The translations under genes were made by a program, and so were the position numbers. Positions 11,172-47,799 of a DNA stretch of 64,000 nt are shown piece after piece (positions within the stretch are counted from its first letter, which is position 1; each line of letters opens with the position of its first letter). The notes below the pieces were generated by a model that was not told where the DNA came from, did not search any database, and saw only the letters and a list, made by a program, of their open reading frames with translations. Origin of the DNA: Octopus vulgaris (taxonomy: Eukaryota); contig OX597840.1 of NCBI GenBank assembly GCA_951406725.2, forward strand, positions 18,538,001 through 18,602,000, given 5' to 3'.

Positions 11172-11311
11172 TATATATATATATATATATATATATATAT
11201 ATATATATATATATATATAAGGAGAGTTTCCAAAAAAAACAAAAGACGAAGAGACAGGTGGTGTACAAAACTAACAGATGTATTAGTATAGTGCTCAAGA
11301 ATAGAAAAAGT

Positions 11312-11347
11312 CTTTTACGTTTCGAGCGTACGCTCTTCTACAGAAAG
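11312..11347 (-). ncRNA. Minimal hammerhead-like motif (Penelope-type)
   Basis: Minus strand: CUUU-CUGUAGA-A-GAGC-guac-GCUC-GAAA-cg-UA-AAAG. A6 is replaced by U; stem III is reduced to one pair with a CG loop. Confidence 0.6.
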
Positions 11348-11839
11348 GAACACAGAAAAAAACAAGGAGAAAAAAAATGTGTGTAGTAGCTAACGATCTA
11401 TCATGGCATCTGTATATATGTATGTATATACGGTGGGTTTTTCTTCATTTTCCGTCTACCAAATCCACTCACAAGGTTTTGGTTGGCCCAAGGCTATGGT
11501 AGAAAACACATGCCCAAGGTGCCACACAGAGTGGACCGGGTGCTGTCTACCACGGCACCAGCAGAACTATACAATTGGGAAGCAAGCTTCTTACCAATCA
11601 ACCACACTTACACACACACACCATCATCATCATCAGCAGCAGTATTTAACATCCATATTTGTATGTTTGTATCCTCTTCCACCATTTGACGGCCAGTGTT
11701 GGTTTGTTTGCACTCCCATAACTTGGCAGTTTGGCAGGGGAGATTGAGAAATTGATAGAATAAGTTCCAAACTTTAAAAAAAAAAAAAGCATAACCAGGA
11801 TCCAATGTTTGAAAGAAGTAAAGGATGGATATGCACATG

Positions 11840-12680
11840 TGTGCTTATCCCTCCACCCGTGCCAATCTACCCCATTCAACTGGCTACTCATCTATGTATT
11901 TATTGATTCATCTACCCATCCATTCAACTATGTCTATTTGTCTGTCCTGTGGGTACGTCATCTACCCCCATCCCCCATTGTCTATTCAATGATCCAACTG
12001 TCTACCCACCTATCTACCCATCTATTTGTCAATCCACCCAACCAGTGAACTCTTCATCTATTTTGTTTATATGTCTATCCATTCTTTCTATCTTGCTATC
12101 CATCCACCCTTTTCAAATATCAACTGTCTCATTTATTTATCTGTCTGTTGAGTCAGTACTTTCATTTATGTATCTTTCTGTCTGGCTATCTACCCAACCA
12201 TCTATCTATCCACCCTTTTCAAATAGCAATTTACCCTATTCAACTATCTATTCATCTATGTGTCTAGCAATCCACCCAGCCAATTGTTCGTCTATTTGTT
12301 TGTCTGTCTGTTGATTCTGTTCTCTCAGACATCCATCTATCTATCCACCCTTTTCATATATCAATCTACCCCATTCAACTATCTATGTATCTGTCAGTCC
12401 ACCCAGCCAACTGTTCGTCTGTTTATCTGTCTGTCAATTCAGTACTCTCATCTATCCATCTATCTGTTTGGGTGTCCATTCATCCACCCATGTCATATCC
12501 CAATCTACCCCATTCAACTATCTACCCATATATATGTCCTTCCATTTATTTAAGTTACCACCAGTTGTCTTTCTATCTATCCATCCCTCTAGCTATCCAT
12601 CCATCCATCGAGTTGTCTATATGCATCTACCCTTTCCATCTGTCACTCTACCCCATTCCCACCCTTATATCTATTTGTGT
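11840..12680. repeat. Degenerate TCTA/TCCA-based tandem repeat
   Basis: Recurring variants of tctaccccattcaactatcta and ccacccagccaa.tgttcgtct with roughly 130-bp spacing in 12230-12530. Confidence 0.65.
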
Positions 12681-46183: not shown

Positions 46184-46267
46184 GACTACATATGTTTCAT
46201 AGTGAGCAGAACCTCAAAAGTAGTAAATATCGAAGTGAAGTGTATACAACAGGCTATTCTTTAGGCC
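46184..46267 (-). ncRNA. Degenerate hammerhead motif (G5->A)
   Basis: Minus strand: GGC-CUAAAGA-AUAG...CUAU-GAAAC-auau-GUA-GUC, with a palindromic AUAU loop III, inside a (TA)n-flanked segment at about 45958-46330. Confidence 0.5.
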
Positions 46268-46749
46268 AAGGGTATCTTGATTATTTTGCTTTGTCCATAC
46301 CAAAACATAGAGGATTTGACCAGAGTGCAATATATATATATATATATATAGTTCTATATTTAAGAGATGAGGAATTATTTACATTCGACGGATATTTGTC
46401 CTCATCTTGTTTGTTGTTAACACAACGTTTTGGCTGATATACCCTCTAGACTCCATCAGGTGTCTTGGGGAAATTTCGAACCTGGGTTCTCATTCCTAAG
46501 GTATTTTTCGATATTATTATTATTATTGTTGTTAGTATTCAGGTCACTGCTTGGAATCAAACTCGGAATCTTGGGGTTAGTAGCTTGCGCTCTTATATGT
46601 AGTTAAGATTATAGTAGTTAAGATTGCGGGCTACTAACCCCAAGATTCCAAGCAGTGACCTGAACACTAACAATAATAATAATAATAATAATAACAACAA
46701 CATCGAAAAATAACTTAGGAATGAGAACCCAGGTTCAAAATTTCCCCAA

Positions 46750-46795
46750 GACACCTGAAGAAGGCTGGAGGGTATATCAGCCAAAACATTGTGTT
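46750..46795 (+). ncRNA. Minimal hammerhead motif (G12->A), right arm of inverted element
   Basis: GACAC-CUGAAGA-A-GGCUG-gaggguauau-CAGCC-aAAAC-AUU-GUGUU. The mirror copy is at 46419-46464 on -. Confidence 0.6.
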
Positions 46796-47799
46796 AACAA
46801 CAAATAAGATGAGGACAAATATCCATCGAATGTAAATAATGTATATATATATATATGTGTAAATAATGTATGTATATGTGTGTGTGTATATGTTTATGTG
46901 TGTATGTGTTTATATATATATATAAATACTGAACTTAGCAGTTCAGCAAAAGAGACCGATAGAATAAGTACTAGGCTTACAAAGAATAAGTCCTGGAGTC
47001 ACTTTCTTTGACTAAAACCCTTTAAGGTGGTGCTCCAGCATGGCTGCAGTCAAGTAACTGAAACGAGCAAAAGAATAAGAGACTAATGCTAAAAACCTAT
47101 TCGCAAAGTAAACTCCTTCCCTCCTTGCCCTCCCACCCTATTTACAGCTAATGTGTTGCCTTGGAGAAGATAGAATGGTAAGACAAGAGCATTGCATCAT
47201 TCCATTTCTTGTTTCCCTTCATAAAGTCTTAGAAATTCCATCTGAAGCCATGTGTTCAATCAAAGGAAATCAATAATATTGTAAGGCTTCGCAATTTTAG
47301 AAAAAACAATAGAAGAAAAACAGCAACAAAAATAATAAAATGAAATCAGGAAAAAAATACTAAACAAAAATACTACAAAATGCATACAACTAACCTTTCA
47401 TTTAAATTTAAGAAAAAAAAATTTTTTTTTTCAAACTGACGATAATCAATAACTTTAATCAATTAACTCAAAATCAATAAAGTTGATCATGTGTGGAAAT
47501 TCAGAAATTGATATCAATACCTACTTTGTTTAAGAATCATAGTAAATATATAACACCCCCACCCACTCTGCTGTGCGTTCCATTCCACCACCACTCTCTT
47601 ATCATCATCATCATCGCTGTCCCTAGATACTCTTATATATACACACTCACATCTGGTGTATATATTCAGGAATAACAGTGCAGTCAAAGAAAGTGCCCTT
47701 TGTGTTTGTTATAATTCCATACACACACACAACACACGTATATATATATATATGTATATGTATGTATGTATATGCACATACATACATGAAAACACAGAT

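What the first reader, a model, noticed from the sequence alone, without database searches (positions are those of the whole stretch)
11221..46840. A cluster of unrelated hammerhead-ribozyme mini-elements living in (TA)n tracts
Seen: six short non-coding elements with no obvious sequence similarity to each other carry a type I hammerhead fold (11312-11347, 18147-18207, 27697-27802, 33659-33699, 46184-46267, 46419-46464/46750-46795). Most have a very short stem III, often with a palindromic loop (CG, ACGU, AUAU). In most, a tail of about 70-230 nt downstream of the ribozyme ends at a (TA)n tract. Established: minimal hammerheads with palindromic loop III mark the pseudo-LTRs of Penelope-like retroelements and metazoan retrozymes and are proposed to cleave as dimers. 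Inference: this genome hosts a dense, diverse population of non-autonomous, microsatellite-targeted ribozyme retroelements (about one per 10 kb here) that ORF-based annotation cannot see.
Basis: partly seen in the sequence, partly recalled or inferred. Interest (0 to 1): 0.9.

Follow-up and report, generated by a model that had tools for sequence, protein, structure and literature searches.

The report
Hammerhead-tipped Penelope retroelement remnants
The six sites are copies of six abundant repeat families that carry hammerhead-ribozyme-shaped motifs; two are the cut-off ends of protein-coding Penelope-like retrotransposons and the rest are likely their non-coding hitch-hikers, a known kind of element, though one recently spreading family carries a normally damaging change in the ribozyme core in over 15,000 copies.

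Summary
The observation largely holds. All six sites belong to separate repeat families, each with more than 1,000 first-look candidates, and each has a type I hammerhead fold with a palindromic stem III. The motif is far above chance: 18 hits in 400 kb of unselected genome against 0.28 in shuffles.

Corrections:
- Only 2 of the 7 listed copies are intact.
- The window is no cluster; its density is about the genome's own.
- (TA)n ends are a family trait mainly for sites 1 and 3.
- 'Non-autonomous' is wrong for site 1, the 5'-truncated 3' end of a young Neptune-like RT + GIY-YIG element, and for site 3, the end of a Hydra-like element.

Site 2 is a 356-nt retrozyme-type unit with C3:G8 to U3:A8 covariation. 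Site 6 looks like a SINE with an A/B-box head and a hammerhead. Sites 4 and 5 remain unlinked.

Penelope hammerheads, dimers and retrozymes are published. New here are the octopus-like host and the site-1 lineage, whose core has A6 replaced by U in 15,730 exact copies yet is better conserved than its flanks. Cleavage was not tested.

The parts
11221..11407 (-). Site 1 (family F1): 5'-truncated 3' end (pLTR) of a Neptune-like Penelope element; abuts (TA)n at 11171-11219
11312..11347 (-). Minimal type I hammerhead, core CUGUAGA (A6U, family-fixed), extra A before stem II, CG palindrome; predicted cut 3' of 11316
17954..18365 (+). Site 2 (F2): retrozyme-type unit, period 356 nt, with about 56 nt terminal duplication; 12-bp target duplication at 17942-17953 and 18366-18377
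18156..18200 (+). Type I hammerhead with U3:A8 core (UUGACAA at 18162-18168); stem I damaged in this copy; predicted cut 3' of 18194
27677..27867 (-). Site 3 (F3): hammerhead-bearing part of the 3' end of a Hydra-like Penelope element; hammerhead 27697-27802 has a textbook core, long stem II and CACGUG palindrome
25904..26050 (-). Rest of the F3 tail, ending at (TA)n, separated from site 3 by an insertion at 26051-27675 (AAAAC duplicated at 26046 and 27676)
33560..33728 (-). Site 4 (F4): old family with a 3-bp stem II; hammerhead 33659-33699 has an intact core but unpaired stem II; ends at TG/TA repeats
33755..33838 (+).
45957..46285 (-). Site 5 (F5): hammerhead 46184-46267 with G5A in this copy (family CUGAAGA), CAUAUG palindrome, about 230-nt tail to a short (TA)n
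46351..46595 (-). Site 6 left copy (F6): partial A/B-box head, (AAT)n, hammerhead 46419-46464 (A9G, G12A) and a 24-nt tail present on this end only
46626..46841 (+). Site 6 right copy, head-to-head with the left copy; hammerhead 46750-46795 (G12A, G16.2A); ends at (TA)n

Best explanation
The six sites are mostly decayed genomic insertions of hammerhead-carrying retroelements: two are 5'-truncated ends of protein-coding Penelope-like elements (PLEs), and the other four are likely non-coding dependants or orphaned ends copied by the same PLE enzymes. SHOWN: full-length relatives of site 1 are pLTR-ORF-pLTR elements with an unbroken RT + GIY-YIG frame and a hammerhead in each pLTR; site 3 is joined to a Hydra-type GIY-YIG ORF; relatives of site 2 form head-to-tail arrays of 353-359-nt monomers; site 6 has an integral A/B-box head. 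INFERRED mechanism: a tandem transcript carries two or more hammerheads whose palindromic stem III segments pair with each other. The dimer cleaves and releases unit-length (possibly circular) RNA. The GIY-YIG domain nicks target DNA, often a (TA)n tract for F1 and F3, where the element's own short UAUAU end could pair with the nicked strand. RT then primes there and usually stops early, leaving 150-400-nt 3' ends, head-to-head inverted partners and a tail on one end. Inserted copies then decay, largely at CpG sites.
For: 28 of 30 GIY-YIG-selected loci have an F1 end 420-1120 nt downstream on the same strand, 4 of them 88-92% identical to the window copy. 5 of 6 long-ORF loci fetched show pLTR-ORF-pLTR with frames of 1092-1200 codons (stop to stop) and direct repeats 98.1-99.8% identical; Pfam RVT_1 E 1.4e-7. 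The pLTR/5'-UTR junction reads TTATATAT and all 5 downstream ends run into (TA)n at that point. F3: ORF at E 5e-19 in L411, and the same ORF DNA in L410, L109 and L115. F2: L342 has 5 tandem plus 2 inverted monomers, 68% identical to the window copy; the monomer folds at z -4.1. 8 of 14 pairs change on both sides across 8 relatives, including C3:G8 to U3:A8. Inverted upstream partners: 12, 12, 9, 7, 4 and 0 of 30 loci for F4, F6, F2, F5, F3 and F1. These match the features in PMC4209133 and PMC8557442.
Against: No cleavage, circular RNA or read-end data. F4 and F6 have no ORF link, and F5 has one rearranged locus out of 30. F2 follows a PLE ORF in one locus only (L230), and a copy of that ORF family (L240) ends in a different hammerhead. 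The GIY-YIG Pfam score of the F1 ORF is below cut-off (E 0.007). The 8 aligned sequences were hand-picked and 6 came from a descriptor that demands pairing, so the covariation is partly by construction. The F4 stem II is only 3 bp, with the core intact in 19 of 52 copies. F1 has U at the conserved position 6.
Confidence: 0.86

Rival explanations
1. All six are non-autonomous, microsatellite-targeted mini-elements.
For: No PLE protein match inside the window. Most copies are short. F2 and F6 have no coding part. About 14 of the 17 F1 copies with the 5' motif start within a few bases of the same point, by eye, as a separately amplified short unit might.
Against: F1 and F3 are continuous with GIY-YIG ORFs, including the window's own F1 subfamily. 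TA ends occur in only 1 of 16 F2 and 1 of 18 F6 loci.
Confidence: 0.07
2. The folds are real and selected, but in some lineages (above all F1, A6U) they no longer cleave and act instead as a binding or dimerisation signal for the PLE protein.
For: U6 is present in 98% of 93 F1 copies while position 7 varies freely. A6C gave kobs below 0.1 per min, in line with earlier mutational data for this position (PMC3088659, passage). The motif is 0.90-0.92 identical between U6 subfamilies against 0.58-0.79 for flanks. Naiad PLEs spread without canonical hammerheads (PMC8557442, passages).
Against: All other core positions, the cleavage triplet and the CG palindrome are kept. PLE hammerheads are known to be slow (PMC4209133), so a slow variant may suffice. 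This rival affects only the cleavage step, not PLE membership.
Confidence: 0.3
3. The motifs are chance matches in AT-rich, repeat-rich DNA.
For: Five of seven listed window copies fail a strict descriptor. A relaxed descriptor also returns unrelated hits at 60526, 14632 and 47408. Four of the six window motifs fold no better than shuffles, and site 2 only marginally. Rfam gives nothing at gathering threshold.
Against: 18 against 0.28 hits in unselected DNA; family-level cores, palindromes and compensatory changes; position in pLTRs of intact PLEs; 15,730 exact copies against 0 for the reversed control.
Confidence: 0.01

Closest known systems
Minimal hammerheads (min-HHR) of PLE pseudo-LTRs (Cervera & De la Pena 2014, PMC4209133)
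   Same: Type I topology, extra nucleotide between 9 and 10.1 (F1, F6), palindromic 15.2-16.2, U3:A8 variants, mostly solitary truncated copies, opposite-strand pairs 100-700 bp apart, many families per genome.
   Different: Octopus does not occur in the one searchable supplement, and I found no U6 core in its alignment (one of two supplementary files not searched). F3 and F5 have very long stem II arms.
Neptune-clade and Hydra-clade EN+ PLEs (Craig et al. 2021, PMC8557442)
   Same: The F1 ORF has DKG, a CX4CxxC linker and C-terminal GIY-YIG with CCHH. The F3 ORF has a CX5C-type linker with CxxC and CxH near the end. Both show (TA)n insertion, pLTR tandems, inverted 5' copies and a one-sided tail.
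   Different: Clade assignment rests on motifs only; no tree was built. The F1 hammerhead departs from the canonical core at position 6.
Non-LTR retrozymes (Cervera & De la Pena 2020, PMC7229834; Li et al. bioRxiv 10.64898/2026.07.22.740005)
   Same: F2: about 350-nt non-coding monomers in tandem, 6-bp stem I and 4-bp stem II, highly self-paired monomer, coexisting with PLEs.
   Different: The window subfamily has the U3:A8 core and is mostly 1.2-mers. Circular RNA was not shown. Neither main text mentions octopus.
Schistosome hammerhead SINE-like elements (SM-alpha, Sj-alpha; seen as a figure legend and a reference title in PMC6765202, otherwise recalled)
   Same: Short interspersed element carrying a hammerhead, as F6 does.
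   Different: F6 carries a PLE-type minimal hammerhead and PLE-type inverted ends with a one-sided tail. Its tRNA origin was not confirmed.

Membership tests
Type I hammerhead ribozyme | Conserved core C3-A9, G12-A14, A15.1-U16.1, H17 | tested here: met
   Met at family level for F3-F6 and as U3:A8 for F2. F1 departs at position 6. Among window copies the core is unbroken at sites 2, 3 and 4, but only site 3 also keeps all stems.
Type I hammerhead ribozyme | Stems I-III with compensatory changes | tested here: met
   F2 group: 8 of 14 pairs change on both sides, 2 of 500 shuffles reach this (selection caveat). Not formally counted for F1, F3, F5 or F6; F4 is blurred by CpG decay.
Type I hammerhead ribozyme | Self-cleavage at NUH | not testable with these tools
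   No assay; the public runs available were contigs only.
PLE min-HHR | Located in pLTRs flanking an RT + GIY-YIG ORF | tested here: met
   F1. F3: (broken ORF).
PLE min-HHR | The same, for F4, F5 and F6 | tested here: inconclusive
   F5 1 of 30 loci; F4 and F6 none among the fetched loci.
EN+ Penelope-like element | Partial tandem pLTRs, inverted 5'-truncated copies, one-sided tail | tested here: met
Neptune clade (F1) | CX2-5CxxC linker and CCHH in a C-terminal GIY-YIG | tested here: met
   Read directly in the L319 translation; motif definitions from PMC8557442.
Neptune / Hydra clade | Placement in the RT phylogeny | not tested
Hydra clade (F3) | CxCX5C linker, CxxC and CxH motifs, no CCHH, (TA)n targets | tested here: inconclusive
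   L411 has CX5C with the first Cys absent, plus CSLC and CKH; relatives L204 and L226 share the layout; TA in 11 of 12.
Non-LTR retrozyme (F2) | Non-coding 170-400-nt tandem monomers, each with a type I hammerhead | tested here: met
   L342 array; window period 356 nt.
Non-LTR retrozyme (F2) | Abundant circular RNA | not testable with these tools
   No run on record as RNA; contigs cannot show circles.
tRNA-derived SINE (F6) | tRNA-related head with A and B boxes | tested here: inconclusive
   The head precedes the hammerhead in 20 of 30 family loci and 10 of 12 heads elsewhere are followed by it. A- and B-box matches are to recalled consensus motifs. ARAGORN and Rfam do not call a tRNA.

The most novel reading that the evidence does not exclude
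A recently active Neptune-like PLE lineage has fixed A6U in the hammerhead core (15,730 exact copies, four subfamilies differing at position 7, motif better conserved than its flanks). It is either a natural ribozyme variant rescued by dimerisation or PLE protein, or a hammerhead retained for a non-catalytic job. The same genome holds a Pol III-type SINE (F6) that rides PLE machinery through a hammerhead-bearing end. Sister lineages with A6 and U6 side by side make the open question of what PLE hammerheads do directly testable.
Probability: 0.35. Interest if true: 0.65.

Novelty: new variant of a known kind. Interest (0 to 1): 0.42.

Why it matters
The function of hammerheads in endonuclease-bearing PLEs is described as unclear (PMC8557442). 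This genome offers young, intact elements and natural core variants (A6 versus U6, C3:G8 versus U3:A8) in related lineages, ready for paired cleavage assays. It also suggests roughly 2 x 10^5 hammerhead-family copies in 2.8 Gb (extrapolated from 35 hits in 400 kb), a layer that a recent octopus repeat annotation does not mention. The general biology is already published, so the gain is a new host and a testable variant, not a new system.

Tried and rejected
Rfam: nothing in the window at gathering threshold. At E<=10 the 150 rows shown of 462 were microsatellite artefacts. Even a young canonical copy scored only 12.3 bits on Hammerhead_1.

ARAGORN and Rfam did not call the F6 head a tRNA.

ORF links sought and not found. 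A Hydra-like family (L195-L224) has its own hammerhead, not F1-F6. So does the 781-aa family. Of 30 relatives of the F5-adjacent ORF, only the query locus had F5. Antisense ORFs beside F4 (L128, L145) are unrelated neighbours. ORFs near F3 in L240, L407, L408 and L395 were judged neighbours or nested insertions. The F1 'tandem' in L191 is a 1.7-kb local duplication.

Expression: no RNA holder listed. Contigs of three runs only guessed to be RNA cover the L342 monomer and show a head-to-tail joint that tandem DNA explains equally well; not used as evidence.

PDB search with the F1 ORF found nothing. The earlier-findings index was empty.

Literature on novelty: 'hammerhead ribozyme + Penelope-like + octopus' returned only PMC8557442. 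'hammerhead ribozyme + A6U + catalytic core' returned 0. 'Penelope-like + SINE + tRNA-derived + hammerhead' returned one unrelated listing. Lunse et al. 2017 and Arkhipova et al. 2017 were not held and may already describe position-6 variants.

Full report
CONTEXT. The window is G000:C27:18538001-18602000 of a 2.8-Gb genome, rich in microsatellites. I take it to be octopus-like from recalled repeat types and size; the species was not established. No PLE protein matches the window itself.

1. OBSERVATION. All quoted intervals contain hammerhead-shaped motifs. A strict type I descriptor finds one perfect hit, site 3. Allowing one core mismatch adds sites 1 and 5 and unrelated hits at 60526 and 14632. 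Each site is a copy of a separate dispersed family, with 1195-2702 first-look candidates; 40 were scored and 30 fetched per family. Alignments show the motif at family level. A descriptor admitting the cores CUGANGA, UUGANAA and CUGUNGA with a palindromic stem III gave 18 hits (11 sites) in 40 pre-chosen 10-kb stretches, against a mean of 0.28 in 25 shuffles, and 2 hits in the window against 0.03. The motifs are therefore real.

State of the window copies. Site 1 is intact for its family and site 3 is fully canonical. Site 2 has a broken stem I, site 4 a broken stem II, site 5 has G5A, and both site-6 copies have G12A. Across F6, GAAA is intact in 29 of 52 copies and the F4 core in 19 of 52, with CpG-type changes dominating. 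This points to neutral decay after insertion.

Density. There are 35 homologue hits in 400 kb, so the window is typical rather than a cluster. Family profiles found 7 F1, 4 F6, 8 F4, 3 F5, 0 F3 and one F2-like array in that sample (hits covering at least half the model, inverted partners counted).

(TA)n ends. 22 of 25 (F1), 11 of 12 (F3), 3 of 9 (F5), 1 of 14 (F4), 1 of 18 (F6) and 1 of 16 (F2), against a 4.4% background. Only loci whose end motif was recognised were counted, out of 30 each.

2. WHAT EACH FAMILY IS. F1 (site 1). A GIY-YIG fragment upstream of an F1 relative (L236) retrieved 150 listed matches. Of the 30 fetched, 28 have an F1 end 420-1120 nt downstream on the same strand. Four (L303, L306, L310, L312) carry the window's own subfamily, 88-92% identical and joined by a C/A-rich UTR. 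Five of six long-ORF loci are pLTR-ORF-pLTR, with frames of 1092-1200 codons and direct repeats 98.1-99.8% identical. The protein has RVT_1 (E 1.4e-7) and a weak GIY-YIG match (E 0.007, below cut-off), with DKG, YIDD, CX4CxxC and CCHH motifs, the Neptune layout of PMC8557442. The tandem junction reads TTATATAT and the 3' ends run into (TA)n there.

The F1 core is CUGU-N-GA. Position 6 is U in 98% of 93 copies, while position 7 is A, U, G or C (39, 27, 9, 7). The exact 27-nt pattern occurs 15,730 times, against 0 for the reversed control. Between U6 subfamilies the motif is 0.90-0.92 identical against 0.58-0.79 for flanks (the G7 subfamily was not captured by that pattern). A more distant sister family keeps A6.

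F3 (site 3). Long copies extend more than 2 kb upstream as AT-rich non-coding DNA and reach a broken Hydra-type GIY-YIG ORF in L411 (E 5e-19). The same ORF DNA lies in L410, L109 and L115. The window copy is split by an insertion at 26051-27675 with AAAAC duplicated.

F2 (site 2). This is a 356-nt unit with a short terminal duplication and a 12-bp target duplication. A relative 68% identical forms an array of 5 tandem plus 2 inverted monomers in the unselected sample (L342), and its monomer folds at z -4.13. Eight hand-picked relatives show 95.5% pairing and 8 of 14 pairs changed on both sides, including the 3:8 pair (5 U-A, 3 C-G) and different stem III palindromes. Six of the eight came from the descriptor, so part of this is by construction.

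F6 (site 6). The unit is a head with A- and B-box-like motifs (recalled consensus), then (AAT)n, a minimal hammerhead and a tail. The head is present in 20 of 30 loci, and 10 of 12 heads in other loci are followed by the hammerhead. tRNA finders do not call it. The window pair is head-to-head with the tail on one end only, the PLE pattern of PMC8557442 Fig. 2 (legend seen).

F4 and F5. Both are older. Inverted partners occur in 12 and 7 of 30 loci. F5 flanks a Hydra-like ORF fragment in one rearranged locus of 30, and F4 has no link.

3. MECHANISM. Shown: element anatomy, intact ORFs, tandem units, palindromes, TA ends for F1 and F3, and decay of copies. Inferred from PMC4209133 and PMC6765202: two hammerheads in a tandem transcript pair through stem III and cleave slowly as a dimer to release unit RNA, which may circularise. 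The PLE endonuclease nicks the target and RT primes there. My own inference is that the element's UAUAU end pairs with a nicked (TA)n. Premature stops and template switches give short 3' ends and inverted partners. F2 and F6 would borrow PLE protein in trans. Confidence is 0.86 for the PLE system overall and lower for cleavage by F1, since A6C is slow (below 0.1 per min, PMC3088659).

4. COMPARISON. It works like, and for F1 and F3 meets the tested criteria of, PLE pLTR hammerheads. F2 meets the genomic criteria of non-LTR retrozymes. F6 works like a hammerhead SINE, with tRNA origin unconfirmed.

What I saw of each paper: PMC4209133, parts 1-2 of 4 plus searches of one of two supplements. PMC8557442, passages and a supplement search. 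PMC7229834, PMC6765202, PMC3088659, PMC13282606 and PMC4758252, passages, plus one supplement search for PMC13282606. bioRxiv 10.64898/2026.07.22.740005, parts 1-2 of 5 and passages; its supplements were not seen. Lunse 2017, nothing beyond a review's summary.

5. NOVELTY. The system is known. I did not find hammerheads reported for octopus PLEs of these clades, an A6U core, or a tRNA-headed SINE with a PLE hammerhead in my searches. A key paper was unavailable, so this absence is weak.

6. VERDICT. A real feature and a new variant of a known kind; interest 0.42.

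Noticed in passing
window 26051-27675: LINE-like insertion (251-codon frame at 26048-26803, RTE-like by recalled motifs; 62-bp minisatellite; (GAT)n end) that splits the site-3 element.
   Followed up: partly
L275-L279 and the list: Young PLE family with an unbroken 781-codon RT + GIY-YIG frame at many loci; its 3' hammerhead has a U3:A8 core and a CAUG palindrome.
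   Followed up: partly
L195-L224: Hydra-like PLE family with its own hammerhead about 35 nt before a (TA)n end and an optional 60-nt tail.
   Followed up: partly
all fetched loci: 17 hammerhead sequence clusters among 154 hits, with varied palindromes (CAUG, CUAG, CGCG, CAAUUG, CGAUCG); several have U3:A8 cores and some look retrozyme-like.
   Followed up: partly
L031-L060: About 14 of the 17 F1 copies with the 5' motif begin within a few bases of the same point, about 65 nt upstream of the core: a preferred truncation point or a separately amplified short unit.
   Followed up: no
L005, L014, L015, L016: A full-length F6 sits inside a LINE fragment with an apparent target duplication, and this 1.2-2.5-kb composite occurs on four contigs.
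   Followed up: partly
L322-L328: The last 100-150 nt of F3 are about 77% similar to a repeat in the 3' UTR of another PLE family, hinting at exchange of 3' ends between clades.
   Followed up: no
window 7216-7557 and 24382-24690: Fragments that look like Tc1/mariner transposase by recalled motifs.
   Followed up: no
window 20885-21569: 243-bp unit in 2.8 tandem copies, 88% matches.
   Followed up: no
window, e.g. 3449-3665, 8688-8904, 16585-16801, 45147-45363: Abundant SINE-like repeat, 14 copies of an 85-nt core in the window.
   Followed up: no
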